In this document: positions 30,018 to 58,514 of the stretch, in pieces
Numbering within the stretch: the stretch's first letter is position 1
Layout of the letters: each line of letters opens with the position of its first letter
Source: a phage
DNA: 64,000 nt
Assembly (NCBI GenBank): GCA_014685065.1
Contig: GCA_014685065.1_3930.1
Direction: 5' to 3' (one strand)
Notes under the pieces: generated by a model
The model's input: only the letters and a program-made list of their open reading frames with translations
The model's database searches: none
Told to the model about the DNA's origin: nothing
Translations under genes and position numbers: made by a program

Positions 30018-38033
<8,016 letters not shown>

Positions 38034-47686: not shown

Positions 47687-49288
47687 TCAACGTCTAAGCC
47701 CCTCATATGGGTTTCCTCTCACTAAATCTGTGTGAGCACCCATTGATGGTGGCTTGAATAATTTAACTTCGTTAAGACTGTTGAAAGCATCACTGGTAGC
47801 ATCCACTTGGTCATCTTTAGTTTTACCGTCACCACAAAAGCCTTCAAGTTCTTGAAAGTAAGCTTCATTCCAACTACCTCTCAAGACTTTTACAAGTCCA
47901 GCTTCAGAAGCAGCAGAAAATCCCGCAAAGCGGGTAACTTTATCTTTATTTGTTGGTTTGGCTCTTGCTCGATAACCTTTCTCGGCAAGTTTCCTGATGA
48001 GGGATGTTGCGTAGGATTTACCAGCAGCGCCTGGGTCTTGAGGGATAAAAATACCAGTTCGCTTACCGTCACTTTCAGCAGTCAAATTAATTTGTGTTTC
48101 GACTCCAGAGGGTCTATCTCTAAATCTTACTACATCAATGATATAATAGCAACCGTCTTTTTTAGATTTACCCATCTTAACACCTGCTGTCCAGTCTGGA
48201 TTAGGGTTAATCTCAGATGGTAAAGTTGCTGCTAAGTCCCATGCTCTAACATCAAATACATCTTCTGGGAGTGAATCAACAATTTCACACCATTGTCTTT
48301 GCCAATAGTTTGAACCTTCTGCACGAGCCTTCCAGTTACCGAAACGAAGTCTTGCAACGTTTACAGGAGTGTTGTTTTCCAACTTACCACGGTACTTAGG
48401 CTCTAAGAAGTCAAGGATTGGGTTATCATCAATCGTACCAGAAATAAAGGTGTATGTTTGAGGAATCTCAAGGGGGAACATTTCAAGAATCTTGTCTCTC
48501 TCCCAATCAGAAACCATCACGCCATCGTGCATTACATACCAACGAATACGACCACATTTTTCAGGGTCTGGGTAGCCTTCTTCATCTAAGAATGGCTCTA
48601 CCCAATCGTAAATAAAGTGGTCTCTGTCTGGGTTCATGGAAATCTTCATGTATGAATCGCCTTCAGCACCAGAACGTAGACGGGTTTGTAGGTATGAAAT
48701 CTGTGAAGCAGAGAAGTGTGTACCTTCGTCAAAGTAAATAGCTGAGTATTCAATACCCTGATGACCTTCAGCGTGCTTTTCAAGTTCTAGGTAGGTAAAC
48801 TTGATAGTTGCCCCAGAAGGGAATGTGATAGTCATTTTCTGCTCGTGAGGAATCCCACCAAACTTACCAAATAGTTTCTTTGCAGCAGGCCATAAACCAC
48901 CTTGTAACTGTGTTGTATTTCGACGGAAATATACAGCATTATAGTTAGGGTCTTCAATAAATCTTAAAGAGTCCATTAACAATGCGGCAGTCTTACCAGC
49001 ACCAGCAGCACCACCATAGAGAACCAAGTCAGCATTAGTATTTAAAAAGACCTCTTGAGAACCCGGCTGAGGGGCTACATAGTTCTTATCAGTCATCAAT
49101 TTAAAGATAAGGCGAACTTGGTCTGGTGTGTATCTTAATAAAGTCAGAATTTGAGTTGGAAGGAATTTAGAGGGGTCTTTACCGAATGATTTAATAATTT
49201 CTTTTACTTCATCAGAAAGCCCCAACTCTCCAGCTAGGACTTTCCTAACATCTTCCACTCGCTTCTGCTTAACAGCATTTAAGTCCAT
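47687..49288 (-). CDS. terminase large subunit
   Basis: Start set at ATG 49286-49288 behind a GGAGG RBS (track start is TTG); Walker A GGAAGAGKTAA; about 533 aa. Confidence 0.85.
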   Translation of the reverse strand: MDLNAVKQKRVEDVRKVLAGELGLSDEVKEIIKSFGKDPSKFLPTQILTLLRYTPDQVRLIFKLMTDKNYVAPQPGSQEVFLNTNADLVLYGGAAGAGKTAALLMDSLRFIEDPNYNAVYFRRNTTQLQGGLWPAAKKLFGKFGGIPHEQKMTITFPSGATIKFTYLELEKHAEGHQGIEYSAIYFDEGTHFSASQISYLQTRLRSGAEGDSYMKISMNPDRDHFIYDWVEPFLDEEGYPDPEKCGRIRWYVMHDGVMVSDWERDKILEMFPLEIPQTYTFISGTIDDNPILDFLEPKYRGKLENNTPVNVARLRFGNWKARAEGSNYWQRQWCEIVDSLPEDVFDVRAWDLAATLPSEINPNPDWTAGVKMGKSKKDGCYYIIDVVRFRDRPSGVETQINLTAESDGKRTGIFIPQDPGAAGKSYATSLIRKLAEKGYRARAKPTNKDKVTRFAGFSAASEAGLVKVLRGSWNEAYFQELEGFCGDGKTKDDQVDATSDAFNSLNEVKLFKPPSMGAHTDLVRGNPYEGLRR

Positions 49289-49309
49289 TAAGCGCCTCCG
49301 CAAATAGAA

Positions 49310-49510
49310 TTATTCAGAGTCTGTAGCAGTCTCTTCTTTCTTAACTTCGAATTTAGCATCAACAGCATCAAGAAGTGCATCCATAGATGCCTCTTTAATA
49401 TCAATACCTGTTGCTACAGATAATCTGTCTGCAATTGCCATGATAGTGTTCTGCATAAATTCCAGCTTTTTGTTAGCTTCATAAAGTTCTTTATAAACGG
49501 TCTCGCTCAT
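49310..49510 (-). CDS. hypothetical small protein upstream of terminase
   Basis: 66 aa; too small for a typical small terminase, function unknown. Confidence 0.35.
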   Translation of the reverse strand: MSETVYKELYEANKKLEFMQNTIMAIADRLSVATGIDIKEASMDALLDAVDAKFEVKKEETATDSE

Positions 49511-49634
49511 TATGTTTTCTCCAAATAATTAACCATGTTTCCCCTTAAAAAAGACGGCACAGAGACCGTCAAGGAGAAACCACAATGTACGTCAGAGACA
49601 TACTGTATAAGTCTTCCTATAAAGTATAACTCTG

Positions 49635-49694
49635 TAAAAAAGCCCTGTCTAAAAATACTCTTCGGTAGCGAAAGGAAGAATACTTATAGCAGGG
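49635..49694 (-). terminator. compound hairpin + T-run, candidate terminator of the tRNA operon
   Basis: GCCCTG (49641-46) / CAGGGC (49689-94) with a nested TCTTC/GAAGA stem; on the minus strand followed by TTTTTT (A6 at 49635-40). Confidence 0.4.
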
Positions 49695-49732
49695 CATTAT
49701 TATTATTTTAATTGAGAGAGAGTAAAATAACT

Positions 49733-49808
49733 TGGAGAATCCGAAGGGACTCGAACCCTTATAAACCTGTTTTGCAGACAGGCACATAGCCATTTCTGTC
49801 ACGGATTC
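49733..49808 (-). tRNA. tRNA-Cys (anticodon GCA)
   Basis: Hand fold: acceptor GAATCCG/CGGATTC, T-arm GGGTTCGAGTCCC, anticodon loop CTGCAAA, CCA encoded. Confidence 0.6.
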
Positions 49809-49812
49809 AAAT

Positions 49813-49905
49813 TGGAGGAAGATACCAGACTTGAACTGGTACACCGATTTCTCAGCTACTGGCAGTTTAGCAAACTGCTCCCTTACCTTTTAGGGTTAAT
49901 CTTCC
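49813..49905 (-). tRNA. tRNA-Ser (anticodon GCT), class II
   Basis: 93 nt; acceptor GGAAGAT/ATCTTCC, anticodon stem GCAGT/ACTGC with loop TTGCTAA, long variable arm. Confidence 0.55.
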
Positions 49906-49906
49906 A

Positions 49907-50641
49907 TTATTTCTGTAATGCGTTCTTCATTTCTGGTGTTGCAATAGTGTCAATTACACCAGTTTTACAGGCATCATCAAACCAGTCTGGTAAGATACCT
50001 GCTAAGAACCCATTGATATTCGTTTTAAGGTACTCTGCAATAAGGGCAGCTTCTTCTTCAATCATCTGCACAACTTCATCTGCATAAGCTGTAATCTTTG
50101 AGATACCTTCATTAATCTTACTGACAGCTTGGTTAGCTAAATCAGAAACAGTATCAAGACCCTTGTCAATAGCGTCTTGTAAGTCACTTAATACATCGTT
50201 AACACTCTCTAGTGTACTGTTAATCGTATCAATAGCTTTTTGACCATATTCTGTAGCAACACCCATAATACCACTGAACGGTGTACAACCAACTTGTTCT
50301 CCTGCTGCACCCATAACATTGGAATATCCATTTGCTACCTGCATACGTGATGAAAACTCATCAATAGATTTTTGACCGTAGTCTGTCAGGGTCTTAGTAG
50401 TTGCTGTAGTGCTTGTAAGGCTTGTTGTAAAGCTGTTTAGAAGGACTGTTGTAAGTCCAGCAGCAACAAGTTTCTCCTGCATTGTAGGGTCTGTTACAGA
50501 ACTAATAGAGCTTACAAGTGATGTAGAAGCAGCTACGGTTCCACCGAGAACTGCTGCACCAGTAATAAGTGGGTTAGAAAACCCTTTACCGGTTTTTAAG
50601 AGATTAAAAATCTCCTTACCTTGTTCTGTCATCTCTTTCAT
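49907..50641 (-). CDS. hypothetical Ser/Thr/Ala-rich protein embedded in the tRNA array
   Basis: Track ORF trimmed to an internal ATG so it does not overlap the tRNA at 50660-50734; about 244 aa. Confidence 0.4.
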   Translation of the reverse strand: MKEMTEQGKEIFNLLKTGKGFSNPLITGAAVLGGTVAASTSLVSSISSVTDPTMQEKLVAAGLTTVLLNSFTTSLTSTTATTKTLTDYGQKSIDEFSSRMQVANGYSNVMGAAGEQVGCTPFSGIMGVATEYGQKAIDTINSTLESVNDVLSDLQDAIDKGLDTVSDLANQAVSKINEGISKITAYADEVVQMIEEEAALIAEYLKTNINGFLAGILPDWFDDACKTGVIDTIATPEMKNALQK

Positions 50642-50659
50642 TAAGCACCTTTGAAATTG

Positions 50660-50734
50660 GTAGTCCAGTGGGATTTGAACCCTCTTCTCATGTTTTTCAG
50701 ACACGCGCTTTAACCATATAAGCTACTTGGACTA
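50660..50734 (-). tRNA. tRNA-Phe (anticodon GAA)
   Basis: Acceptor TAGTCCA/TGGACTA, T-loop TTCAAAT, anticodon stem CGTGT/ACATG with loop CTGAAAA. Confidence 0.5.
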
Positions 50735-50739
50735 TAAAT

Positions 50740-50815
50740 TGGGGTGACCTACGGGATTTGAACCCGTATAGACCATGTTCACAGCATGGGTCATTGCCAT
50801 TTATGATAAGGCCAC
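50740..50815 (-). tRNA. tRNA-His (anticodon GTG)
   Basis: Anticodon stem CCATG/CATGG, loop CTGTGAA; T-arm ACGGGTTCAAATCCCGT. Confidence 0.6.
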
Positions 50816-50846
50816 ATTTAAGGACTCTCGTAAGAACCCTTAGAAG

Positions 50847-50922
50847 TGGCAGCGGCATAAGGATTTGAACCTTAATAGGACAGCTTCAGAGACTGTTGCA
50901 TTGCCAGTTATGCTATACCGCT
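50847..50922 (-). tRNA. tRNA-Gln (anticodon CTG)
   Basis: D-stem GCAT/ATGC, anticodon loop CTCTGAA, T-arm TAAGGTTCAAATCCTTA. Confidence 0.55.
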
Positions 50923-50927
50923 AAATT

Positions 50928-51006
50928 TGGTACTCCATATCGGATTCGAACCGATACATAACACAGATTTTAAGTCTGGCCTCTCTGCCAATTGGAGTAA
51001 TGGAGC
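50928..51006 (-). tRNA. tRNA with Leu anticodon TAA but short variable arm (class I-like)
   Basis: Acceptor GCTCCAT/ATGGAGT, discriminator A, D-loop AATTGGCA, anticodon loop CTTAAAA, T-arm ATCGGTTCGAATCCGAT; aligns with the tRNAs at 51751 and 52329. Confidence 0.45.
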
Positions 51007-51008
51007 AT

Positions 51009-51084
51009 TGGCGGGGGATGTTGGAATTGAACCAACTTCTTCGATTTCAAAGACCGAGGTTTTAACCTTGTAAACTAATCCCCT
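51009..51084 (-). tRNA. tRNA-Gln (anticodon TTG)
   Basis: Anticodon stem TCGGT/ATCGA, loop CTTTGAA; T-arm GTTGGTTCAATTCCAAC. Confidence 0.55.
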
Positions 51085-51092
51085 TTAAATCT

Positions 51093-51650
51093 TTACTTTC
51101 TCAGTGGATGAATAAAGAATGCCAACATAACTCTTTCCCTTGAGAATGCTCTTTCTTCTGGGACAACACTTTTTAGTTTCCATCCAATATAAATTCTCCA
51201 GTAAAACTGTTTACCAAAGACTTTAATTGATGGGATAAAAGCGAATAATCCCCAAGCATTACTGTTCCACATTAGGAGATAACCTGTCTGATTATCTTCA
51301 GGGTCAGAACTTACGTTGATATTACCTTTCCACTTAGTAACATCTTTTACATCTCTTCCTAATACATGGTAAGAGAAGTTATAAGCTTTGTTTCTCCAGA
51401 GCCATCCGACTCTCTGCATGTAGACACCCAGCTTACCAATCTTTCTAATCTTAGCCCATCGTTCGATATGACCTTCGTCACCATCAATTGGATTGTCATA
51501 TGTCTCCATCCATCTAAATCCGAAAGGTAAGTGGCCTTTCTTCTCACTGTAAAATGGAACTACGAAAGGTGCTAAGATAACTGCTAAGGTTGCTGCTAAT
51601 GGTTCTAGCAAAGCTAGGAAAATCCATGAAGCATATTTTAAATATCTCAT
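51093..51650 (-). CDS. hypothetical membrane protein embedded in the tRNA array
   Basis: 185 aa; N-terminal TM segment (WIFLALLEPLAATLAVILAPFVV), Trp-rich body. Confidence 0.5.
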   Translation of the reverse strand: MRYLKYASWIFLALLEPLAATLAVILAPFVVPFYSEKKGHLPFGFRWMETYDNPIDGDEGHIERWAKIRKIGKLGVYMQRVGWLWRNKAYNFSYHVLGRDVKDVTKWKGNINVSSDPEDNQTGYLLMWNSNAWGLFAFIPSIKVFGKQFYWRIYIGWKLKSVVPEERAFSRERVMLAFFIHPLRK

Positions 51651-51669
51651 CTAAATAGCCTCTTTAAAT

Positions 51670-51745
51670 TGGCGCAGGATAAGGGATTCGAACCCCTATT
51701 AACAGCTTCGTAGACTGTTGCTCTATCCATTTGAACTAATCCTGC
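51670..51745 (-). tRNA. tRNA-Arg (anticodon ACG)
   Basis: D-arm GTTC...GAGC, anticodon stem ACAGT/GCTGT with loop CTACGAA. Confidence 0.55.
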
Positions 51746-51750
51746 AAAAT

Positions 51751-51828
51751 TGGTGTTCCAAGACGGATTCGAACCGTCACTAGTACAAGGTTTGAGCTTG
51801 CATCCTCTGCCAATTGGGATACTGGAAC
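51751..51828 (-). tRNA. tRNA with Leu anticodon CAA but short variable arm (class I-like)
   Basis: Acceptor GTTCCAG/TTGGAAC, discriminator A, D-loop AATTGGCA, anticodon stem GCAAG/CTTGT with loop CTCAAAC. Confidence 0.45.
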
Positions 51829-51829
51829 A

Positions 51830-51904
51830 TGGTACTCACTAAAGGACTTGAACCTTTTTCTTCATCTTGTAAGGGTGGTGTTTTACCATATAAACTAAGC
51901 GAGT
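51830..51904 (-). tRNA. tRNA-Val (anticodon TAC), tentative
   Basis: Good acceptor, D-arm (GTTT/AAAC) and T-arm (AAAGGTTCAAGTCCTTT); anticodon stem is weak, loop read as CTTACAA. Confidence 0.4.
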
Positions 51905-51910
51905 ATGAAA

Positions 51911-51992
51911 GAGGTCTGAAGTTGTGCCGCTAACTCAACTCCGTGGAATTTGTTACGGTCTTCAGTTGACACCAGCGGTCTTTCACTTGACC
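51911..51992. other. tRNA-sized structured element without canonical T-loop
   Basis: Terminal inverted repeat GAGGTC / GACCTC about 80 nt apart with internal hairpins (CCGT...ACGG); no GTTCRA motif on either strand. Confidence 0.35.
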
Positions 51993-51999
51993 TCTGAAT

Positions 52000-52076
52000 T
52001 GGTGCTGCTCACAGGACTCGAACCTGCATTTCCATCCTTACAAGGGATGTGTAATAGCCAATTATACGAAAGCAGC
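52000..52076 (-). tRNA. tRNA-Thr (anticodon TGT)
   Basis: Perfect anticodon stem CATCC/GGATG, loop CTTGTAA. Confidence 0.6.
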
Positions 52077-52082
52077 ATTGTT

Positions 52083-52157
52083 TGGAGCATCCAGAGGGAA
52101 TCGAACCCTCAACCTCAGTTTGGAAGACTGTAATTTTCCCGTTTAAACTATGGATGC
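52083..52157 (-). tRNA. tRNA-Gly (anticodon TCC)
   Basis: Acceptor GCATCCA/TGGATGC, anticodon loop CTTCCAA, T-arm GAGGGTTCGATTCCCTC. Confidence 0.55.
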
Positions 52158-52163
52158 ACTAAT

Positions 52164-52240
52164 TGGTGGAGAAGCAGGGAATTGAACCCTGTACTTAAGT
52201 TTGCAAAACTTATGTTTTAACCATGTAAACTACATCCCCA
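52164..52240 (-). tRNA. tRNA-Ala (anticodon TGC)
   Basis: D-stem GTTT/AAAC, anticodon stem TAAGT/ACTTA with loop TTTGCAA. Confidence 0.6.
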
Positions 52241-52245
52241 ATGTT

Positions 52246-52321
52246 TGGTACAGGTGGAGGGAATTGAACCCATCGTCTTACTGATTAAGAGTCAGCCGCA
52301 TAACCATTTTGCTACACCTGC
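52246..52321 (-). tRNA. tRNA-Lys (anticodon CTT)
   Basis: Anticodon loop CTCTTAA; paralogous in sequence to the Lys(TTT) tRNA at 53966. Confidence 0.5.
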
Positions 52322-52328
52322 ATTAATT

Positions 52329-52405
52329 TGGTACACCTAGAGAGATTCGAACTCACACTGAGCAGATTCTAAGTCTGCTGCCTCTACCAATTGGGCTATA
52401 GGTGC
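52329..52405 (-). tRNA. tRNA with Leu anticodon TAG but short variable arm (class I-like)
   Basis: Acceptor GCACCTA/TAGGTGT, discriminator A, D-loop AATTGGTA, perfect anticodon stem GCAGA/TCTGC with loop CTTAGAA, variable region only about 5 nt. Confidence 0.5.
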
Positions 52406-52663
52406 ATTAAATCTTTTTAGAGAACTTCTAAGAACCTAAGCAACAAGGTTCCACAACAAGCTGTAATAACCTTAGAAGCCCTCTAAAAAGACCTAATTTG
52501 GTCTTTGCATAGTCTTGTTTAATCCGGTGACTAGAACCTTTGGAGAGCTTGATATTATCTCTTCTCCGTGACACCTACTAGGTGCTTTACTGTGCGTGTA
52601 CGACAATACACGAGGGATACCAAAGCAACATCCGAATGAAGCTTGGCTTTAAATCTTATTAGG
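52406..52663 (-). ncRNA. structured non-coding spacer within the tRNA array (candidate small stable RNA)
   Basis: No ORF and no tRNA; several hairpins (CTTCTAAG...CTTAGAAG 8 bp; AGACC-taattt-GGTCT; CGTGTA-cgacaa-TACACG). Confidence 0.3.
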
Positions 52664-52751
52664 CGGTAAGTAAAGGAGTCGAACCCTCACCGTATCTCTA
52701 CAGTGGCAACTGTTTTCAAGACAGTTTGGCTACCATTAGCCGCTACCTACC
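52664..52751 (-). tRNA. tRNA-Ser (anticodon TGA), class II
   Basis: 88 nt; perfect anticodon stem ACTGT/ACAGT with loop CTTGAAA; long variable arm; CCA not encoded. Confidence 0.55.
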
Positions 52752-52764
52752 CCTAATAAGACTT

Positions 52765-52847
52765 TGGCATGGGACGGAGGAGTTGAACCACTTTGAAACG
52801 GTTTTGGAGGCCGTTGCTCATGCCTTAGAGTCTTAACATCGTCCCAC
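52765..52847 (-). tRNA. tRNA-Trp (anticodon CCA), atypical
   Basis: 83 nt; acceptor GTGGGAC/GTCCCAT, anticodon region ACGGC-CTCCAAA-ACCGT; T-stem imperfect. Confidence 0.4.
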
Positions 52848-52989
52848 ACTATAATTCGAAGCTTACCGTATTTTCACAACACTGTAAAGCCCCTTCTCAG
52901 ATTATTTACATGTTCTGGAAAACATGAGATACAGACCACCTCCTTACACGGAGACCCGATAAGGTCGTCTAAGCAATCTGCTAACTATT

Positions 52990-53066
52990 TGGCACACCCT
53001 ACAGGATTCGAACCTGTAACTAACGATTTAGAAGACCGTTGCTCTATCCAATTGAACTAAGGGTGC
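52990..53066 (-). tRNA. tRNA-Arg (anticodon TCT)
   Basis: Anticodon stem ACGGT/ATCGT, loop CTTCTAA; T-arm ACAGGTTCGAATCCTGT. Confidence 0.55.
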
Positions 53067-53313
53067 ATTAATCTTTAAAGACTCTCTTAGAAAGCCCTTA
53101 AAGATGCCCACCTTATTAATCATACCGTGGGCGAGTACGCCAAATTCTTTGATGAGGGATTGGAAGACCTCACTGGTGTTTAGCCTATCAAGCTACTGCC
53201 AGAAAAACATTGTCGTTTGCATTTATTTTAAATTTGCAAAATAGACGCTACGCAACGAAAACTAAGGTTACTATAAAGTGGTCACATCTCAATGTCAACA
53301 ACTTTATTGAAAT

Positions 53314-53389
53314 TGGTACTGTGAGAAGGATTCGAACCTTCTGCCTTTCGGTTATCAGCCGAATGCACATCCATATGTGCTTTCACAGC
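53314..53389 (-). tRNA. tRNA-Ile (anticodon GAT)
   Basis: Perfect anticodon stem TTCGG/CCGAA, loop CTGATAA. Confidence 0.6.
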
Positions 53390-53868
53390 ATTGTTACCCC
53401 TTCGTGTACCTCTCTGTGGCAATTTGCACACAGTAATACACACTTATCAACTTCAGACTTCATTACCTCTATAGAGAAGTGTTTTTGTCCTACTGTGAAG
53501 TCCTTTGTATTAGGGTCTAAGTGGTGAAACTCTAAAGCCTTTATGCACTTATTGTATCCACAAATTGAGCAACAACCACCTTTGTAATCAACTAAAACCC
53601 TCTTAAGTTTGTCACGAGACTTTTTAACGTGTTGTGACTTCGCTTTCTTTTCTTCATCGGGGTTTTTGTATTGTTTCAGAATACCATTTGAAATACATTC
53701 ATCACAATACTTTCTTGATTTTGGTGTTTGTTTTCCACATGAATGACAAGAGCCTTCTTGTCTTCTTTTTGGATGACTCTTGTTGTTTACCCTTGCAGCA
53801 CAAGAGCGTGAACAATATTTTCCGCCTTTAACGGCTTTGTTGTCACAATCTTTATTAGCACAAAACAT
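53383..53868 (-). CDS. HNH homing endonuclease
   Basis: Trimmed to ATG 53866-53868 (RBS GGTGA) so it does not overlap tRNAs; Cys-rich N-terminal region; C-terminal HNH motif EFHHLDPNTKD...CANCHREVH. Confidence 0.7.
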   Translation of the reverse strand: MFCANKDCDNKAVKGGKYCSRSCAARVNNKSHPKRRQEGSCHSCGKQTPKSRKYCDECISNGILKQYKNPDEEKKAKSQHVKKSRDKLKRVLVDYKGGCCSICGYNKCIKALEFHHLDPNTKDFTVGQKHFSIEVMKSEVDKCVLLCANCHREVHEGVTML

Positions 53869-53884
53869 AATATCACCAACGAAT

Positions 53885-53961
53885 TGGAGGTTCAGATGGG
53901 AATCGAACCCACATTCATAGGGCTTATGAGACCCCTGCATTACCTTATCTGCGACTGAACC
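53885..53961 (-). tRNA. tRNA-Met (anticodon CAT)
   Basis: Acceptor GGTTCAG/CTGAACC perfect; anticodon stem GGGGT/GCCCT, loop CTCATAA. Confidence 0.55.
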
Positions 53962-53965
53962 ATAT

Positions 53966-54041
53966 TGGTAGAAGTGGAGGGATTCGAACCCATCGCCTGT
54001 CAGATTAAAAGTCTGCCGCATCACCATTCTGCTACACTTCC
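53966..54041 (-). tRNA. tRNA-Lys (anticodon TTT)
   Basis: Anticodon loop CTTTTAA; T-arm ATGGGTTCGAATCCCTC. Confidence 0.5.
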
Positions 54042-54045
54042 ATTA

Positions 54046-54181
54046 AAATTATCTTTGTAGATAAGCTATCCAGACTTGCTTAAGGTCTGTAGCGATGTGC
54101 CTTGTTGGGTTTAAATCTAGAATTTACCCTTTCACTCTTTGTGGTCGCATACTCACAGGTAAGCTTAATAACTTATCTACA
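54046..54181. repeat. 19-bp perfect inverted repeat flanking a ~98-nt spacer
   Basis: aattatctttgtagataag (54046-54064) is the exact reverse complement of cttatctacaaagataatt (54163-54181); inner CAGAC...GTCTG hairpin. Confidence 0.55.
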
Positions 54182-54241
54182 AAGATAATTACCAGACCGT
54201 TGTTTATCATCTTAAGTGCTACCATTACACCAACTCGACAT

Positions 54242-54266
54242 CTGCCGAGTGAAGGAATCGAACCTT
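54242..54266 (-). other. tRNA 3'-half-like fragment (T-arm plus acceptor 3' strand only)
   Basis: Canonical GAAGGTTCGATTCCTTC T-arm followed by ACTCGGC-A, but no complementary 5' acceptor strand found within 120 nt. Confidence 0.3.
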
Positions 54267-54497
54267 CGCCTTTTCTTTACCGGAGAAATAGATTGTTTAA
54301 GTTTTGCTGTAAACGGTCTTCTGTAAATTTGTTGAGCCAGACCAAGTTTTAAATTTTCAAAATTAAATTGGCTTGAAATTTCATACATTCTTGCTGTATT
54401 TGGTCTTCTGCTCCTTTAAAGAATACTCGTAAGAACCCTTTAAGGGAGGGGCTAAATAGCCCTCTCAAAACATCATCTTGAAATACTTATTATAATT

Positions 54498-54574
54498 TGG
54501 CGGTTACGAAGGGATTTGAACCCTCATCATCTCCCGTGACAGGGGAGTATTTTAACCAGTTAAACTACATAACC
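54498..54574 (-). tRNA. tRNA-Asp (anticodon GTC)
   Basis: Perfect anticodon stem CTCCC/GGGAG, loop CTGTCAC; D-stem GTTT/AAAT. Confidence 0.6.
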
Positions 54575-54580
54575 TTTATT

Positions 54581-54668
54581 TGGTGTGCCGTGTAGGAGTC
54601 GAACCTACCGAGTCTCAATGACAAGGGATTTACAGTCCCCACCGCTACCATCTACGGGATAACGACAC
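54581..54668 (-). tRNA. tRNA-Tyr (anticodon GTA), class II
   Basis: 88 nt; anticodon stem GGGGA/TCCCT, loop CTGTAAA; long variable arm. Confidence 0.5.
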
Positions 54669-54737
54669 ATTTAATTTCTATTCAGGCTAAGGACTTGCAC
54701 CTTACAAATCGGTGAGCAATCGCTTCTCTCCTAAATT

Positions 54738-54814
54738 TGGCGGTTAGTCAGGGATTCGAACCCTGTGCCATTCGCTTAACAGGCGACCGCACATACCTTA
54801 TGTGCTTCCTAACC
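54738..54814 (-). tRNA. tRNA-Asn (anticodon GTT)
   Basis: Anticodon loop CTGTTAA; T-arm CAGGGTTCGAATCCCTG. Confidence 0.5.
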
Positions 54815-54891
54815 TTAATACATTGCCAGACCGTGTTTTTTCTTTTATCCGCAAAAAGTATTTTGTTGCTGAATACGGTCTTCTGCAAAAT

Positions 54892-54968
54892 TGGAGGCGG
54901 GTGCAGGAGTCGAACCTGCCGATACCATGCTAATGAGACATGTGAGACGCCCTTTCTCTATACCCGCA
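54892..54968 (-). tRNA. tRNA with anticodon CAT (Met or Ile2), tentative
   Basis: Anticodon stem CATGT/GCATG, loop CTCATTA (position 37 is T, unusual); 1-72 mismatch in acceptor. Confidence 0.4.
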
Positions 54969-55059
54969 ATTCTTAATGACCAGACCAAATCTCTTCTTTG
55001 TCCGATTTACCTTCAGATGAATAAGATTAAGTTTGCTGTAATTGGTCTTCTGTCAAAAC

Positions 55060-55137
55060 TGGCGTTCCAGAAGGGATTTGAACCCTCAAATATCCACTTT
55101 GAAAGAGTGGTGACTTTACCATTTTGTCTACTGGAAC
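55060..55137 (-). tRNA. tRNA-Glu (anticodon TTC)
   Basis: Perfect acceptor GTTCCAG/CTGGAAC and anticodon stem CCACT/AGTGG, loop CTTTCAA. Confidence 0.6.
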
Positions 55138-55144
55138 ATTAATT

Positions 55145-55224
55145 TGGTCTCCGTTGAAGGATTTGAACCCTCGACCCCTTGCTCCCAAAGCAAGTGCTGC
55201 TAAACCAAACTGAGCTAAACGGAG
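55145..55224 (-). tRNA. tRNA-Pro (anticodon TGG)
   Basis: Perfect acceptor CTCCGTT/AACGGAG and anticodon stem CTTGC/GCAAG, loop TTTGGGA with G37. Confidence 0.6.
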
Positions 55225-55342
55225 ATAAACTTTTCAAACTCTATGTAACCACTTTAACATTATTTTTTAGTGGTTGTCAAGAACTTTTTTAAAATATTTT
55301 TCAGTATCTTAGAAAAGCTCTCATTTCGTTTCTATGTAGAAC

Positions 55343-55371
55343 ATATTAAAGGGTATCAAACACATTGTCAA
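55343..55371 (-). promoter_or_regulatory. sigma70-like promoter reading into the tRNA array
   Basis: On the minus strand: TTGACA - 17 nt - TAATAT; lies inside a GGGTAT...ATACCC hairpin just downstream of the vWA gene stop. Confidence 0.55.
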
Positions 55372-55389
55372 TACCCTTTTTAAAACTTT

Positions 55390-56805
55390 TTACCAGATGT
55401 AACGGTCAATCATTACTGCTTTGAGCATTACGCTGATTGGGTCAAACTTCTCACCACCAAGCAGAGCTTTTAAAGTGGCTGGAGAGAACCCTGATACCAT
55501 TGCTACACCATTATCCTTAACAGATACTTCGCAAGTACCATTACGGTTTGCTAAGTACCAGAATACCAGTTGTGGCATTTTGTATCCAGCTTTTTTGTAC
55601 TTACTACGAATCGCTTCAAAGTTTGTACGACCATTAGCTCCATCAACCTGATTGAACTCCATATCAGAGAAGATAATAAGCTTACTTGGCATATCTTTCT
55701 GAGTCAAGTTGTTTCTCTTACCTGTTTCAAGAATGCGGTCAAAAGCTGCTTGTAAGTTAGTTGAGCCATATTCAACGTGTCGCATCACCTGACGATGACG
55801 GTTTCGTAAATCACCACTCAGTTCGATGAAGTGAGGGTTTGTCGAATAAACCATCAACTCATTCTTAAAGCAACCTGTATTGCGTTCTGCTACATACAAG
55901 GCAAGTGATACACCAATATCCAGAGCAGTAATGGAGCCAAAATTCACCCAAGACATTGAACTTGATACATCAGACATACACAAGATGTTTTCACCTTCTG
56001 CCATCCAGTTTGGTAGTGCTTTCCACTGCTCATTAGCAACATCTGCATTACCATACTTGACAGATTTAATCACATCGTATGGGTAAACAGCACCAGCGTT
56101 AATCTTAGTCTCACCTTTTGATAAGGACTCGATGTAAGCTTTGTAACGCTCTCCATCTTTACGGTTAAACAGTTTTTGGTAACGTGCAGCAGCAAGTGAA
56201 GGAATCTTACTGTAGTCAATCTTACCAAACTCATTAGCAGAGATTTTTTGCTCAACTGTATCAGATAGTGCAGACAACAGTGTGCGATACTCTTTCTCAC
56301 TCAAGTTTGCAAACTTGCAGAAACGTTTTACAAACTGTTTGTGACGTGGTTTTACTCGTGGTAACCACTTAGCTGCTAAACCTGCTGTTGCAGGGTCTAG
56401 TAAAGCTGCTTCTAAATGTTTGAAGGCATCTGTCTCGAAACGAGTACCTACAAAGATTTTGAAGTCATCAAAGCGACCAAGCTCTGCAATCTTATCCATA
56501 ATGCGAAGAACCTGCGTAGGCTCTAAAACTTTATCTTCAATCGCTTGAAGTAAAACAGTTCGGAAAGCTTTACGCTCACCCATACCTTCTCGTACATCTC
56601 GCATATGCAGTAAAATACGAACTGCAACATCAACATCCTCATGCAAAGCTTTGTAGAACAAGTCTGGTAAGATTTCTACATTGCTACGGCTGGAACCAGC
56701 AGCTTTGTAAAAGTCCACAAGAGCAGACATTGATGAAGTATGGTTTACAGCACCATTTTCAGTTCGACCTGCATGAAGGTGCGCATGTTTAAATAATTCG
56801 CTCAT
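55390..56805 (-). CDS. von Willebrand factor A (vWA) domain protein, possibly Ro60/TROVE-like
   Basis: 471 aa; C-terminal region has a MIDAS-like DxSxS motif (MSDVSSSMS) and later LIIFSDMEF; N-terminal half is helical. Adjacent to the tRNA array. Confidence 0.5.
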   Translation of the reverse strand: MSELFKHAHLHAGRTENGAVNHTSSMSALVDFYKAAGSSRSNVEILPDLFYKALHEDVDVAVRILLHMRDVREGMGERKAFRTVLLQAIEDKVLEPTQVLRIMDKIAELGRFDDFKIFVGTRFETDAFKHLEAALLDPATAGLAAKWLPRVKPRHKQFVKRFCKFANLSEKEYRTLLSALSDTVEQKISANEFGKIDYSKIPSLAAARYQKLFNRKDGERYKAYIESLSKGETKINAGAVYPYDVIKSVKYGNADVANEQWKALPNWMAEGENILCMSDVSSSMSWVNFGSITALDIGVSLALYVAERNTGCFKNELMVYSTNPHFIELSGDLRNRHRQVMRHVEYGSTNLQAAFDRILETGKRNNLTQKDMPSKLIIFSDMEFNQVDGANGRTNFEAIRSKYKKAGYKMPQLVFWYLANRNGTCEVSVKDNGVAMVSGFSPATLKALLGGEKFDPISVMLKAVMIDRYIW

Positions 56806-56885
56806 ATTTTACTCTCTTCTCTCATTGTTGTTTGATGTGACAGACTTTAGAGCAACTTTATAGAGTCTGTCAACACCTTTTAAAA

Positions 56886-57257
56886 TTATTTTTTGAGGGT
56901 TGCAACAGCAGAGAACGTTGGTTTGTTATCTGTCTGAGACTGACCGCCGTTATCAGGGGTCTTCTTAGTGTCTGCTGCAATTGCTTTCATCTCACCTGCT
57001 GAGTGAGTCATGATAGTTTTACCGACCTCAATCATACTCTTGATGGTTACGTCATCTGTGTTTAACCCGAACTCTGCAAGCTTAGCCGCGTCCCTTGTAA
57101 CAATCGCCTCAAACAGCTTTGCAGCGAACTCAGCAGAATTATCAATGGTCAGTTGAGCTTTTACGAGTGAGCTTTTGTTACGAGAGCCTTTTGGTCTTCC
57201 AGATGGGTTTCCAGACTGGCCTTTTTTAAACTGGCCTTTGTTTGTTCTGTTTTTCAT
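56886..57257 (-). CDS. small basic protein with AT-hook-like GRP motif
   Basis: 123 aa; N-terminus KGQFKKGQSGNPSGRPKGSRNK. Confidence 0.45.
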   Translation of the reverse strand: MKNRTNKGQFKKGQSGNPSGRPKGSRNKSSLVKAQLTIDNSAEFAAKLFEAIVTRDAAKLAEFGLNTDDVTIKSMIEVGKTIMTHSAGEMKAIAADTKKTPDNGGQSQTDNKPTFSAVATLKK

Positions 57258-57384
57258 TGGTATGCCTCTTATAAGACCTCTTAAAAGGCTTTTAAGATAA
57301 AAGATAGATATCCAGAAAGATATCTGTTTAAATAGCCTTTTTAGAGGAACCTTTTAAGTTATCTTCTAAGTATTTATAAGCCTA

Positions 57385-57408
57385 CACCTTGTCAAGTACT
57401 TTGTCAAC
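57385..57408. promoter_or_regulatory. second copy of CACCTTGTCAAGT-N3-TTGTCAAC motif
   Basis: Near-identical to 15297-15320; sits in the divergent intergenic region between the 56886 (minus) and 57507 (plus) operons. Confidence 0.35.
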
Positions 57409-57506
57409 AACTTTTTTAACTTGCAATAGTTCTTGACTTGTTGTATGGATTACTGTACCATCTTACTTAAAGCTGTAGGTCTGCCTTGTTCTACAAAGGA
57501 GACTTA

Positions 57507-57668
57507 ATGAGAAAATCAAATAAACCGAAGAAAGGTAAGAATACCAATCACTGTAAGGAATCAAAAAGGGTAGAATTAATCTACTATTCGTCCTCTGAAA
57601 TTGGTCTGTACCTGTTCTTTCAAAATTACAGAAGACAAGAGGATTATCTATGTGTAGTTCCCAATTAG
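57507..57668 (+). CDS. hypothetical small basic protein
   Basis: Start set at ATG 57507 behind AAGGAGA; 53 aa. Confidence 0.4.
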   Translation: MRKSNKPKKGKNTNHCKESKRVELIYYSSSEIGLYLFFQNYRRQEDYLCVVPN

Positions 57669-57883
57669 AAATCGCAGATATTATAGATTTATATCAAACT
57701 GCAAAGAGTCATGGCTATATAACCTCAATTGGAAAGAATAGTCACTATGATGCTTTGACTGGAATGTATTTCAGGGCAATGGCTCAATCTAGTGAACAAC
57801 ACTTAATGGTTTCTTCCAGTGAGTTTACTTCGTTTCTCTATTGCAGCAAAATTATAAACCGCAGGAGAACTGAAAAATGTTAA
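57650..57883 (+). CDS. hypothetical protein
   Basis: 77 aa. Confidence 0.4.
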   Translation: MCSSQLEIADIIDLYQTAKSHGYITSIGKNSHYDALTGMYFRAMAQSSEQHLMVSSSEFTSFLYCSKIINRRRTEKC

Positions 57884-58467
57884 CAGTAAGTTTTAATTAC
57901 AATAGTGATGGCTCTGTATCAATTAATTCACCATATGCAAATGACCTGCTTAAAGAGCTAGTCAATCAGTGTGATAGAGGTCTTCACTATGTTCAAAATT
58001 CTTTTAAACAGAAGACTATTGCTAATAACTTGATGCGTGTAACAGTAACGGCATCGAATCAAAATTATGACTTTGATAGTGAAAGTCCGTACTCATTAGT
58101 TGCGCTTGGAGAGAGCAGCCAATTCAAACTTGTTTGCCACGACTCAGAAACATTCCTTAAGGTATTTTCCAACCTTATCCATAATAATAAGTACAGCTAC
58201 GTTGATGGTAGTGTAAATTTCTATCCAGCAAACTATACATGTTTGTTGGTTGATAATATGAGAAAAAGTAAGCAAGAGCCTACGGAAATTTCATTTGATG
58301 TGAACTCTAGTCCAGACGCAGAAACAAGTAAGAACTTTGATATGAGTTACGCATTGTCACTCAGTAAGAAATCCGAGTTCATTGATTATGTCAATGGATT
58401 TGGTTTTAAGTTTGATGAGAGTATGAATCTTAAAAAACTTAAGAACCTACTTAAGACCAAAGCTTAA
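57877..58467 (+). CDS. hypothetical protein
   Basis: 196 aa. Confidence 0.5.
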   Translation: MLTVSFNYNSDGSVSINSPYANDLLKELVNQCDRGLHYVQNSFKQKTIANNLMRVTVTASNQNYDFDSESPYSLVALGESSQFKLVCHDSETFLKVFSNLIHNNKYSYVDGSVNFYPANYTCLLVDNMRKSKQEPTEISFDVNSSPDAETSKNFDMSYALSLSKKSEFIDYVNGFGFKFDESMNLKKLKNLLKTKA

Positions 58468-58514
58468 GTGTGAATAGGGGCTGATGCCCCTTTAACTATT
58501 TATAAGGATATTTA

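What the first reader, a model, noticed from the sequence alone, without database searches (positions are those of the whole stretch)
55390..57257. vWA/MIDAS protein and AT-hook protein operon adjacent to the tRNA array
The 471-aa protein has a C-terminal vWA-like region with a DxSxS MIDAS motif preceded by a helical N-terminal half, the architecture of Ro60/TROVE-type RNA-binding proteins, which in bacteria and some phages sit next to tRNA-like Y RNAs. Its stop abuts the tRNA-operon promoter, and the tRNA array contains tRNA-like fragments and structured spacers. The upstream 123-aa protein has a GNPSGRPKG AT-hook-like motif. A phage Ro60-like RNP with tRNA-like partner RNAs would be notable, but the TROVE assignment is only an inference.
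Basis: inference. Interest (0 to 1): 0.6.

Follow-up and report, generated by a model that had tools for sequence, protein, structure and literature searches.

The report
Phage Ro60-like protein and partner RNAs
This Felix O1-type phage encodes a ring-shaped RNA-binding protein resembling the human Ro60 autoantigen (already reported for a sister phage as an anti-defence factor), and four small RNA genes that look like its partner "Y RNAs" lie hidden between the neighbouring tRNA genes, belonging to an RNA class that accompanies this protein family in very diverse phages.

Summary

What appears new is the RNA. Four elements in the tRNA-array spacers (54189-55050, tRNA strand) share a covarying terminal stem plus the motif (U)UACAGCAA. 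The fourth encloses a permuted tRNA-like domain, as in YrlA. Covariance models trained only on non-Felix phages recover them as the top window hits (E 3e-6 to 7e-9). In 45 non-redundant homolog loci, 27 have such modules within 700 nt of the gene, and all 103 hits lie on the gene strand. A related Erwinia phage that lacks the protein lacks the modules but keeps the tRNA array and the DUF5681 gene.

The 123-aa protein is DUF5681, restricted to this phage lineage, with no detected functional tie. The modules resemble Dictyostelium Class I RNAs; that link is untested.

The parts
55390..56805 (-). Ro60-like ring protein gene (471 aa; Pfam DUF2828 + DUF7788 vWA/MIDAS; PHROG 850 'RNA-binding protein'); ortholog of Bas63 gp130
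56886..57257 (-). DUF5681 protein gene (123 aa; GNPSGRPKG motif; PHROG 4114, unknown function); neighbour of the Ro60-like gene only in Felix-like phages
56844..56873 (-). Promoter-like site (TTGACA-18-TAAAGT) inside an inverted repeat, between the two ORFs
   Evidence: consensus match only
55343..55371 (-). Promoter-like site (TTGACA-17-TAATAT) within a 12-bp hairpin directly after the stop codon
55251..55280 (-). Promoter-like site (TTGACA-18-TAAAGT, with TG) about 25 nt upstream of tRNA-Pro
54977..55050 (-). E1: short Y-like RNA module (terminal stem + UUACAGCAA) filling the spacer between tRNA-Glu and tRNA-Met
   Evidence: Motif; fold; model R1 33.6 bits, E 6e-6
54823..54883 (-). E2: short Y-like RNA module filling the spacer between tRNA-Met and tRNA-Asn
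   Evidence: R1 34.6 bits, E 3e-6; Rfam RF01414 24 bits
54334..54408 (-). E3: short Y-like RNA module in the 456-nt spacer between tRNA-Asp and tRNA-Lys
   Evidence: R1 26.4 bits, E 5e-4
54189..54321 (-). E4: long YrlA-like module. Same closing stem and UUUACAGCAA, enclosing hairpin / T-arm (GAAGGUUCGAUUCCUUC) / hairpin / D-arm-like (GGUGUAAUGGUAGCAC), i.e. a permuted tRNA-like domain
   Evidence: model R2 63.2 bits, E 7e-9, full length, next hit 30 bits
49733..55224 (-). Array of 26 tRNA genes in which E1-E4 are embedded and with which they are presumably co-transcribed

Best explanation
The 471-aa protein is a divergent Ro60-type ring protein: a TROVE-like HEAT-repeat toroid closed by a vWA/MIDAS domain. 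It belongs to a large, mostly phage-borne family (Pfam DUF2828+DUF7788). It most likely forms a ribonucleoprotein with four small RNAs, E1-E4, encoded in the spacers of the tRNA operon that starts 165 nt downstream.

Shown here or by others: the fold; the orthology to Bas63 gp130, which counters the Ppl defence; the existence, covarying helix and conserved ACAGCAA motif of the RNA elements; and their family-wide genomic linkage to the protein gene.

Inferred: (a) E1-E4 are transcribed with the tRNA precursor and released by the tRNA-processing enzymes, since E1 and E2 fill the spacers between flanking tRNAs almost exactly. (b) The protein recognises the terminal stem plus the single-stranded ACAGCAA motif, as Ro60 recognises the bulged Y RNA stem. 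(c) As with bacterial YrlA/YrlB, the RNAs gate the ring's cavity and/or tether it to other enzymes, and E4's tRNA-like domain could recruit tRNA-handling enzymes or PNPase. The particle would then survey or protect structured RNAs, in particular the phage tRNAs, during infection. (d) The same ring, which in Ro60 threads single-stranded 3' ends, could underlie the published anti-Ppl effect by shielding the 3'-OH ends that activate that 3'-5' exonuclease.

For: Identity with the studied protein: 98% to Bas63 gp130 in the same layout. Deleting gp130 sensitises Bas63 to Ppl, and gp130 rescues T7 (PMC11482910).

RNA in the window: AGAAGACC-N5-8-CAGCAA occurs 4 times in the window and 0 times in 100 shuffles, always on the tRNA strand and within 1.2 kb of the gene. 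Each copy has a 3' GGUCUGG partner. All four fold alike, and both the outer and inner stem pairs covary between copies.

Independent detection: model R1, trained on 25 modules from non-Felix phages, gives E2, E1 and E3 as its three best hits in 64 kb (34.6, 33.6 and 26.4 bits; the next hit has E 0.26). Model R2, trained on 12 long modules from non-Felix phages, gives E4 at 63.2 bits against 30.3 for the runner-up.

Family-wide linkage: 103 of 103 R1 hits in 1.34 Mb of homolog loci lie on the gene strand. Of 45 non-redundant loci, 27 have a hit within 700 nt of the gene (0.77 per kb against 0.030 per kb elsewhere), and 8 of those loci have no tRNA within 10 kb. The exact-motif scan finds 24 of 45 loci, against a mean of 1.3 (maximum 5) for 60 permuted motifs and 2 on the opposite strand. 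The lineages include Listeria, Staphylococcus, Bacillus, Enterococcus, Campylobacter, Rhizobium and Aeromonas phages and mycobacteriophages.

Helix: 99.3% of cells are paired, against 33-45% when the partner columns are slid, and all 7 pairs have compensatory changes.

Bridge to known Y RNAs: in cluster-L mycobacteriophages the middle of three tandem modules is a sub-threshold Rfam YrlA hit (37.7 and 39.8 bits) directly downstream of the gene.

Natural knockout: Erwinia phage phiEa104 keeps the tRNA array and the DUF5681 gene but has neither the protein nor any module.
Against: There are no expression or binding data for E1-E4, and no relevant transcriptome turned up. gp130 alone, on a plasmid or inserted into T7, restores plaquing on Ppl, so the phage RNAs are not required for that phenotype. 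No family member reaches Pfam TROVE, and the profile-versus-PDB sequence search gives only E 1.1 to Ro60. Rfam's YrlA model does not hit E4 even in a local scan, and the known Ro-binding motif GNCGAAN0-1G is absent. Twelve of 45 non-redundant loci have no detectable module, including Acinetobacter ME3. Yersinia P778 has no R1 hit, only one exact-motif hit. The training modules were chosen by my own stem-plus-motif scan, and the covariation count uses a model-fitted alignment, so those numbers lean towards the structure. CM E-values come from a shortened calibration. In many loci the modules abut the start or stop codon and could be parts of the mRNA.
Confidence: 0.6

Rival explanations
1. The protein works on its own as a protein-level or DNA-end-level inhibitor of Ppl. 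It may cap ssDNA 3'-OH ends or bind Ppl through its MIDAS face. The ACAGCAA elements would then not be its ligands.
For: gp130 alone suffices to rescue T7 on Ppl strains. Ppl is described as a ssDNA 3'-5' exonuclease activated by 3'-OH ends from homing endonucleases (PMC12904381). MIDAS sites are protein-ligand sites in many vWA proteins (established knowledge).
Against: This does not explain why the RNA modules follow the gene in about 60% of non-redundant loci on the same strand, including loci without tRNAs, nor why they vanish with the gene in phiEa104. The two roles are also not mutually exclusive.
Confidence: 0.2
2. The modules are cis-acting elements of the gene's own mRNA, for example binding sites in the 5' or 3' UTR for autoregulation or stabilisation, and not free trans-acting Y-like RNAs.
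For: In many loci they lie 3-100 nt from the start or stop codon (L008 at 9 nt, L004 at 17 nt, L005 at 18 nt, L020 at 30 nt).
Against: In the window, in Bas63 and in L018 they are separated from the gene by promoter-like sites and tRNA genes. Thirteen of 16 distant copies sit beside tRNAs. They occur as tandem arrays of 2-4 units with individually closed terminal stems, and some carry a complete tRNA-like domain, as free YrlA RNAs do.
Confidence: 0.12
3. The elements are merely processing spacers or decayed tRNA remnants of the tRNA operon, with no relation to the protein.
For: They lie between tRNAs. E4 contains tRNA-derived arms. Tandem tRNA junctions give background hits to the long model.
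Against: The related 35-tRNA array of phiEa104 has none. Eight non-redundant loci have modules next to the gene but no tRNA within 10 kb. The invariant single-stranded CAGCAA and the invariant G after the stem are not tRNA features.
Confidence: 0.04
4. The protein is an ordinary vWA/MIDAS protein, such as a MoxR-type co-chaperone or a structural protein, and the Ro60 resemblance is an artefact of the predicted model.
For: Pfam files it as DUF2828/DUF7788 and not as TROVE. Some records call it 'vWFA protein'.
Against: Full-length matches go to three independent Ro60 structures, with 268-391 residues aligned, while other vWA proteins match only ~150-180 residues. The model is confident in both halves. 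No AAA+ partner gene is adjacent in the window. The linked Y-like RNAs fit Ro60 biology.
Confidence: 0.04

Closest known systems
Bas63 (Escherichia phage JohannRWettstein) gp130, PhageMaP preprint PMC11482910
   Same: Orthologous gene: 98% identical, with the same flanks (g129 upstream, tRNA-Pro 165 nt downstream). Reported there as structurally similar to Ro60 and as a counter of the Ppl defence, transferable to T7.
   Different: That work only speculated that 'some tRNA genes are possibly Y RNAs'. The candidates found here are not annotated tRNAs but spacer elements. In Bas63 they lie at record positions ~82070-82911, partly under the opposite-strand ORF bas63_0137.
Bacterial Ro60 (Rsr) with YrlA/YrlB Y RNAs (Chen et al. 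2014, PMC4201824)
   Same: A ring protein with a vWA/MIDAS domain. Partner RNA genes lie within a few kb on the same strand. There is one long RNA with a permuted tRNA-like domain plus shorter RNAs sharing the protein-binding stem. RNA-repair genes are nearby in some loci (RtcB in Listeria phage, Rnl2 in Aeromonas phage).
   Different: The protein is not recognised by Pfam TROVE. The RNA motif is (U)UACAGCAA next to the 5' stem strand rather than GNCGAAN0-1G. Rfam YrlA is sub-threshold (mycobacteriophages) or absent (window). The RNAs are embedded in a tRNA operon.
Thermus phage phiLo Ro60 with Yrl1/Yrl2 (PMC12135203; PDB 9KOP, 9L5Y)
   Different: phiLo Ro60 is deposited as a TROVE-domain protein, and its Yrls carry the CGAA motif. 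Sequence identity to the window protein is only ~14-16%.
Cluster-L mycobacteriophage 'Ro-like RNA binding protein' (e.g. Lolly9 gp54)
   Same: Same protein family (33% identity over the full length, E 1e-71). Three tandem ACAGCAA modules lie directly downstream, and the middle one is YrlA-like.
   Different: The modules lie in a dedicated ~360-nt intergenic region ending in a terminator-like hairpin, not inside a tRNA array.
Dictyostelium Class I RNAs (Rfam RF01414; Kjellin et al. 2021, PMC7919456)
   Same: Small size (42-65 nt), a short covarying terminal stem, a conserved motif CCUUACAGCAA directly 3' of the 5' stem strand, a variable interior and a conserved 3' CUG(U). RF01414 is the best-scoring curated family for E2 (24 bits), the stem and motif part of E4, and L054 (26.9 bits).
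   Different: All scores are below the gathering score of 41.5. These are eukaryotic Pol III-type genes with a DUSE promoter. The known direct binder is an RRM protein (Rnp1A/CIBP). They are reported as absent outside Dictyostelia. No link to DUF2828 proteins could be tested here.

Membership tests
Ro60 / TROVE-vWA proteins | Sequence match to the Pfam TROVE domain (PF05731) | tested here: not met
   No TROVE hit at E<=1 for the window protein, nor at E<=5 for any of 36 homologs. The profile-versus-PDB search gives only E 1.1 to Ro60, in the MIDAS region.
Ro60 / TROVE-vWA proteins | Fold: alpha-helical HEAT-repeat toroid followed by a vWA domain | tested here: met
Ro60 / TROVE-vWA proteins | Complete MIDAS motif (DxSxS...T...D) | tested here: met
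   D279, S281, S283, T349 and D381 are invariant in 36 homologs.
Ro60 / TROVE-vWA proteins | Y RNA gene(s) encoded nearby on the same strand | tested here: met
   E1-E4 lie 340-1200 nt downstream. There is family-wide linkage, and the mycobacteriophage members have YrlA-like hits. These are candidate RNAs only; expression is unproven.
Ro60 / TROVE-vWA proteins | Binds Y RNA and misfolded RNA 3' ends | not testable with these tools
   Needs RIP/CLIP or EMSA.
YrlA (Rfam RF02553), for E4 | Reaches the Rfam gathering score (69 bits) | tested here: not met
   No YrlA hit at E<=10 in a local scan of 54170-54345 or at E<=1 over 48000-58500. The mycobacteriophage relatives score 37.7 and 39.8 bits.
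YrlA (Rfam RF02553), for E4 | Permuted tRNA-like domain (T-arm, acceptor-like hairpin, D-arm) closed by a long-range stem | tested here: met
   Fold. The Rfam tRNA model matches the T-arm half at 23.8 bits. R2 gives 63.2 bits over the full length.
YrlA (Rfam RF02553), for E4 | GNCGAAN0-1G Ro-binding motif near the 5' end (Chen 2014) | tested here: not met
   The sequence reads ...GACCGUUUACAGCAAAAC...; the conserved motif is ACAGCAA instead.
Dictyostelium Class I RNA (RF01414), for E1-E3 | Reaches the Rfam gathering score (41.5 bits) | tested here: not met
   E2 scores 24 bits, the E4 stem and motif 12.8 bits, and the L054 module 26.9 bits.
Dictyostelium Class I RNA (RF01414), for E1-E3 | Terminal stem + 11-nt motif CCUUACAGCAA next to the 5' stem strand + 3' CUGU | tested here: inconclusive
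   Nine of the 11 motif positions (UUACAGCAA) and CUG are shared, and the architecture is identical. Homology as against convergence was not resolved.
AT-hook proteins, for the 123-aa ORF | Match to the AT-hook profile / R-G-R-P core flanked by basic residues | tested here: not met
   Pfam lists DUF5681 (E 2e-14) and no AT_hook at E<=1. The core reads S-G-R-P-K-G.

The most novel reading that the evidence does not exclude
The 'terminal stem + (U)UACAGCAA + 3' CUG' RNAs are the cognate ligands of DUF2828/DUF7788 Ro60-like proteins wherever that family occurs. Dictyostelium Class I RNAs would then be the eukaryotic members of the same RNA class. They are abundant, developmentally regulated, of unknown mechanism since 2004, and believed unique to dictyostelids. 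That would give Class I RNAs a candidate protein partner and a Ro60/Y-RNA-type mechanism. It would also define a second, phage-rich branch of Ro RNPs with its own recognition code.
Probability: 0.2. Interest if true: 0.85.

Novelty: new variant of a known kind. Interest (0 to 1): 0.68.

Why it matters
The protein already has a phenotype: its Bas63 ortholog counters the Ppl defence and can be moved into T7. Until now it had no defined RNA partner, and the published suggestion pointed at the annotated tRNAs. This analysis gives exact coordinates for four candidate partner RNAs in the window and in Bas63, so binding and deletion experiments can be done directly.

More broadly, a very large phage protein family (more than 2,500 database hits; 710 phage genomes) appears to be a second Ro60 lineage with its own RNA recognition motif. 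It is often wired into tRNA operons and sits near RNA-repair genes, which points to RNA or tRNA surveillance as a common phage function in the conflict with host nucleases. Several of these RNAs are currently overlaid by spurious small ORF calls. The resemblance to Dictyostelium Class I RNAs, if it reflects a shared protein partner, would open a long-standing question to direct test.

Tried and rejected
- Sequence routes to TROVE failed: Pfam at relaxed thresholds, NCBIfam, and phmmer or profile searches against PDB sequences. Only fold comparison showed the relationship.
- Rfam scans of the tRNA region gave no Y_RNA or YrlA hit.
- The 165-nt gap after the gene was considered as a Y RNA site and rejected. 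It holds two promoter-like hairpins and has no room for such an RNA.
- Other structured spacers (51905-51999 and 52406-52497) lack the motif and are not conserved in divergent relatives, so they were not pursued.
- The tRNA-like element at 52771-52845 is conserved in P778 but looks like an aberrant tRNA-Trp, not a Y-like module.
- The idea that the DUF5681 protein is a functional partner was rejected. It is absent from all non-Felix homolog loci and is retained in phiEa104 without the Ro60-like gene.
- Unavailable material: supplements of Chen 2014 and PhageMaP, Avesson 2011 and the 2020 Annual Review, and the AFDB Foldseek library needed to look for eukaryotic homologs.
- Literature searches for DDB_G0281243 and for DUF2828 in Dictyostelium gave nothing usable.
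Full report
WHAT IS THERE. The window is a Felixounavirus (Felix O1/wV8-like) genome. The 2.2 kb around the finding is 97.5% identical to phage wV8 and is present in 253 phage records. Both ORFs exist as described on the minus strand: 55390-56805 (471 aa) and 56886-57257 (123 aa). Twenty-six tRNA genes follow on the same strand, from 55224 down to 49733. The 471-aa protein matches Pfam DUF2828 (E 4e-29) and DUF7788 (E 6e-43), and PHROG 850 'RNA-binding protein' (E 1e-183). The 123-aa protein matches DUF5681 (E 2e-14). RefSeq already names the wV8 orthologs 'RNA-binding protein' and 'DUF5681 domain-containing protein'; other records say 'vWFA protein' or 'hypothetical'. The MIDAS residues D279, S281, S283, T349 and D381 are invariant in 36 homologs of 40-89% identity.

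WHAT IS ALREADY KNOWN. The PhageMaP preprint (PMC11482910) studied the Felixounavirus Bas63. Its gp130 is 98% identical to the window protein (460 of 471 residues) and has the same neighbours: g129 is 99% identical, and tRNA-Pro lies 165 nt downstream. The authors report that gp130 has high structural similarity to Ro60 and lies directly upstream of the tRNA genes, that its deletion makes Bas63 sensitive to the Ppl defence, and that gp130 alone (on a plasmid or inserted into T7) restores T7 growth on Ppl strains. [quoted passage not shown] A 2026 review describes Ppl as a ssDNA 3'-5' exonuclease activated by nucleotide depletion and by 3'-OH ends made by phage homing endonucleases (PMC12904381). 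Homologs in cluster-L mycobacteriophages are annotated 'Ro-like RNA binding protein'. So the protein-level finding is not new.

THE FAMILY AND ITS SURROUNDINGS. The family is large. There are 2,585 hits at E<=1e-5 among the scored candidates and 710 phage records by tblastn, including Mycobacterium, Listeria, Staphylococcus, Enterococcus, Bacillus, Campylobacter, Vibrio and Aeromonas phages. In GenBank phages the gene repeatedly lies beside tRNA genes on the same strand (Listeria, Campylobacter, Rhizobium, Enterococcus, Bacillus, Yersinia). It also lies near RNA-repair genes: RtcB in Listeria phage, Rnl2 in Aeromonas phage, CCA-adding enzyme in Acinetobacter phage. In 80 IMG/VR loci reduced to 34 clusters at 70% identity, 20 have a tRNA within 10 kb. 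In 11 of those the nearest tRNA is within 1 kb (binomial p 7e-7 against a uniform expectation), and all 202 tRNAs share the gene's strand. This is a tendency and not a rule: 14 clusters have no tRNA nearby.

THE PARTNER RNAs. Rfam found no Y RNA in the window. It did give sub-threshold YrlA hits directly downstream of the homolog in two cluster-L mycobacteriophages of different genera (37.7 and 39.8 bits). Aligning that ~360-nt gap from three such phages showed three tandem modules of the form GUGGAC..(U)ACAGCAAUUAAC...GUCCAG, with the middle one enclosing the tRNA-like domain. The window contains the same design. AGAAGACC-N5-8-CAGCAA occurs four times in 64 kb (none in 100 shuffles), always on the tRNA strand, in array spacers 340-1200 nt from the gene, and each copy has a 3' GGUCUGG partner. 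All four fold to one architecture:
- an outer 4-bp stem that differs in every copy yet is always complementary (UGAC/GUCA, UUGC/GCAA, GAGC/GCUC, UUAC/GUAA);
- an AGA/G internal loop;
- a 7-8-bp stem AGACCNN/NNGGUCU, whose inner pairs covary (CCAA/UUGG against CCGU/ACGG);
- the motif (U)UACAGCAA.
E1 (54977-55050) and E2 (54823-54883) fill the tRNA-Glu/tRNA-Met and tRNA-Met/tRNA-Asn spacers almost exactly. E3 (54334-54408) and E4 (54189-54321) lie in the 456-nt spacer between tRNA-Asp and tRNA-Lys. Within the same closing stem, E4 contains a hairpin, a T-arm (GAAGGUUCGAUUCCUUC), a second hairpin and a D-arm-like hairpin (GGUGUAAUGGUAGCAC). That is the circularly permuted tRNA layout that defines YrlA (Chen 2014).

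GENERALITY AND CONTROLS.
- Exact-motif scan. I scanned for a 7-bp arm, 0-4 nt, ACAGCAA, and a complementary arm 20-170 nt downstream. Over the window and 94 loci this found 128 modules on the gene strand, 11 on the other strand and 23 in shuffled sequence. In 45 non-redundant loci, 24 have a module within 700 nt of the gene (0.69 per kb against 0.036 per kb elsewhere). Sixty permuted motifs gave a mean of 1.3 loci (maximum 5), and the opposite strand gave 2. The modules sit in what had looked like empty gaps. There are three upstream in Listeria, Aeromonas and Bacillus phages, two upstream in Campylobacter and Rhizobium phages, and three downstream in Staphylococcus phage and mycobacteriophages.
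- Short-module model. Covariance model R1 was built from 25 short modules, none from Felix-like phages. Its three best hits in the window are E2, E1 and E3 (34.6, 33.6 and 26.4 bits; E 3e-6 to 5e-4), and the next hit has E 0.26. Over 1.34 Mb of homolog loci it gives 103 hits at E<=0.05, all on the gene strand. Of the 45 non-redundant loci, 33 have a hit and 27 have one within 700 nt (11 of the 29 loci not used for training). The density is 0.77 per kb near the gene against 0.030 per kb elsewhere. Eight loci with modules beside the gene have no tRNA within 10 kb, and 13 of 16 distant hits lie within ~350 nt of a tRNA.
- Helix and consensus. The terminal helix is paired in 99.3% of cells (shuffles 60.7%; slid controls 33-45%), and all seven pairs show compensatory changes. 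The alignment is model-fitted, which favours the structure. C, G and C of CAGCAA and the G just after the 3' stem are invariant in 74 distinct hits outside the training set.
- Long-module model. Model R2 was built from 12 long modules of non-Felix phages. In those, RNAalifold recovers the T-arm and the following hairpin with compensatory changes in 10 of 12 pairs. R2 finds E4 at 63.2 bits (E 7e-9, full length), while the runner-up hits (<=30 bits) are tandem tRNA junctions. It gives 23 hits at E<=1e-4 in the loci, all on the gene strand.
- Bas63. The sister phage carries all four elements, at L001:32071-32144, 32238-32302, 32693-32767 and 32780-32912. E3 and E4 lie under the opposite-strand ORF call bas63_0137.

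A NATURAL KNOCKOUT. Erwinia phage phiEa104 (Ounavirinae) has the DUF5681 gene followed directly by a 35-gene tRNA array. Its genome has no member of the protein family: the best tblastn hit has E 0.23 and the family profile finds nothing. It also has no R1 hit (best 16 bits, outside the array), only tandem-tRNA background for R2 (<=24.7 bits), and no [A/U]CAGCAA on the tRNA strand of the array, against four module copies in the window. The RNA modules therefore track the Ro60-like gene and not the tRNA array or the DUF5681 gene.

THE SECOND ORF. The GNPSGRPKG motif belongs to DUF5681; Pfam's AT-hook model is not matched. Homologs occur only in Felix-like (Ounavirinae-type) phages (297 records). 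Among all homolog loci, the gene is next to the Ro60-like gene only in that lineage, down to 43-52% identity, and it persists without the Ro60-like gene in phiEa104. A promoter-like site lies between the two ORFs. I find no evidence of a functional pair, and the protein's function remains unknown. No solved structure matches it by sequence.

MECHANISM. Shown: a Ro60-like fold with an intact MIDAS; anti-Ppl activity of the ortholog (by others); a conserved, covarying RNA element class that is genomically coupled to the protein family; and one element with a tRNA-like domain. Inferred: the elements are transcribed with the tRNA precursor and freed by RNase P and 3' processing of the flanking tRNAs. 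They bind the ring through the terminal stem and the single-stranded ACAGCAA. As in bacterial Rsr-YrlA/YrlB and the phiLo Ro60-Yrl-PNPase complexes, they would gate the cavity or tether the ring to other enzymes, giving an RNA (probably tRNA) surveillance or protection particle during infection. Because gp130 alone counters Ppl in T7, the RNAs are not needed for that phenotype. A ring that threads single-stranded 3' ends could shield the 3'-OH ends that activate Ppl, but that is speculation. Overall confidence in the RNP model is about 0.6.

AN UNEXPECTED RESEMBLANCE. The only curated Rfam family that these modules approach is Dictyostelium Class I RNA (RF01414): E2 scores 24 bits, the stem and motif part of E4 12.8 bits, and a module from an uncultivated phage (L054) 26.9 bits over the full model. 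All are below the gathering score of 41.5. Class I RNAs are described as 42-65 nt, with a short covarying terminal stem, an 11-nt motif adjacent to the 5' stem strand (Rfam consensus CCUUACAGCAA), a variable interior and a conserved 3' CUGU. They are reported as absent outside Dictyostelia. Pull-downs gave GuaB, NdkC, Rnp1A/CIBP and an uncharacterised protein, DDB_G0281243. Whether Dictyostelium has a DUF2828-type protein could not be tested here. This may be convergence, and I give the shared-partner reading about 0.2.

VERDICT. The Ro60 interpretation is supported at the level of fold and already published for the ortholog. The operon and AT-hook parts are not supported. The specific partner-RNA candidates and the family-wide ACAGCAA RNA class were not found in the literature I could search. 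Together they make this a new variant of the Ro60-Y RNA system that is immediately testable in Bas63.

Noticed in passing
window 52771-52845 (-): Non-canonical tRNA-like element upstream of tRNA-Ser(tga), missed by ARAGORN at default settings. The Rfam tRNA-Sec model gives 21 bits. It is 76.5% conserved in Yersinia phage P778, unlike the other spacers. The anticodon-like arm keeps a U-CCA-A loop (Trp) over three compensatory double substitutions. No tRNA-Trp is among the 26 called tRNAs.
   Followed up: partly
window 53383-54027 (-): HNH endonuclease ORF filling a ~495-nt spacer between tRNA-Met and tRNA-Ile. In Bas63 those two tRNAs are adjacent, so this is a homing-endonuclease insertion. 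It may be relevant because Ppl is reported to sense 3'-OH ends made by phage homing endonucleases.
   Followed up: no
window 56844-56873, 55343-55379, 55251-55280 (-): Each promoter-like TTGACA box in this region is embedded in a different inverted repeat (for example TGACAGACT...AGTCTGTCA and AAAGGGTAT...ATACCCTTT). This is a recurring promoter-in-hairpin design of unknown meaning.
   Followed up: no
window 51905-51999 and 52406-52497 (-): Two further strongly structured spacers without the ACAGCAA motif: a 95-nt element (MFE -30.7, z about -3) and a near-perfect ~30-bp hairpin (z -4.2). They are conserved only among close relatives.
   Followed up: partly
L001 (Bas63) 32749-33023; record 82748-83022: The annotated small ORFs bas63_0137 and bas63_0138 lie on the strand opposite the tRNAs. 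bas63_0137 overlaps E3/E4 and bas63_0138 lies just 3' of E4 in the same spacer. They are probably spurious calls over an RNA-coding spacer. Similar tiny ORF calls cover the modules in Enterococcus phage VRE9_2 and Staphylococcus phage S-CoN_Ph7.
   Followed up: partly
L003 (Listeria phage LMTA-34) 2428-2979: A ROOL RNA match (88.5 bits, E 2e-16, just under the gathering score of 99.1) lies ~1 kb upstream of the Ro60-like gene. It sits between tRNAs and the three ACAGCAA modules, with an RtcB ligase gene 1.3 kb downstream. The result is a dense cluster of structured RNAs and RNA-repair genes.
   Followed up: no
L002 5460-5724; L093 3946-4209; L094 3926-4180: Cluster-L mycobacteriophages carry three tandem ACAGCAA modules (the middle one YrlA-like), ending in a terminator-like hairpin, in an unannotated ~360-nt gap after the 'Ro-like RNA binding protein' gene.
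   Followed up: yes
L012 (Acinetobacter phage ME3), L007 (Vibrio phage VH7D): Some family members show no module with model R1. In ME3 the gene is instead flanked by NUDIX and AAA ATPase genes, with a CCA-adding enzyme gene 3.3 kb downstream. These may use divergent RNAs or none.
   Followed up: no
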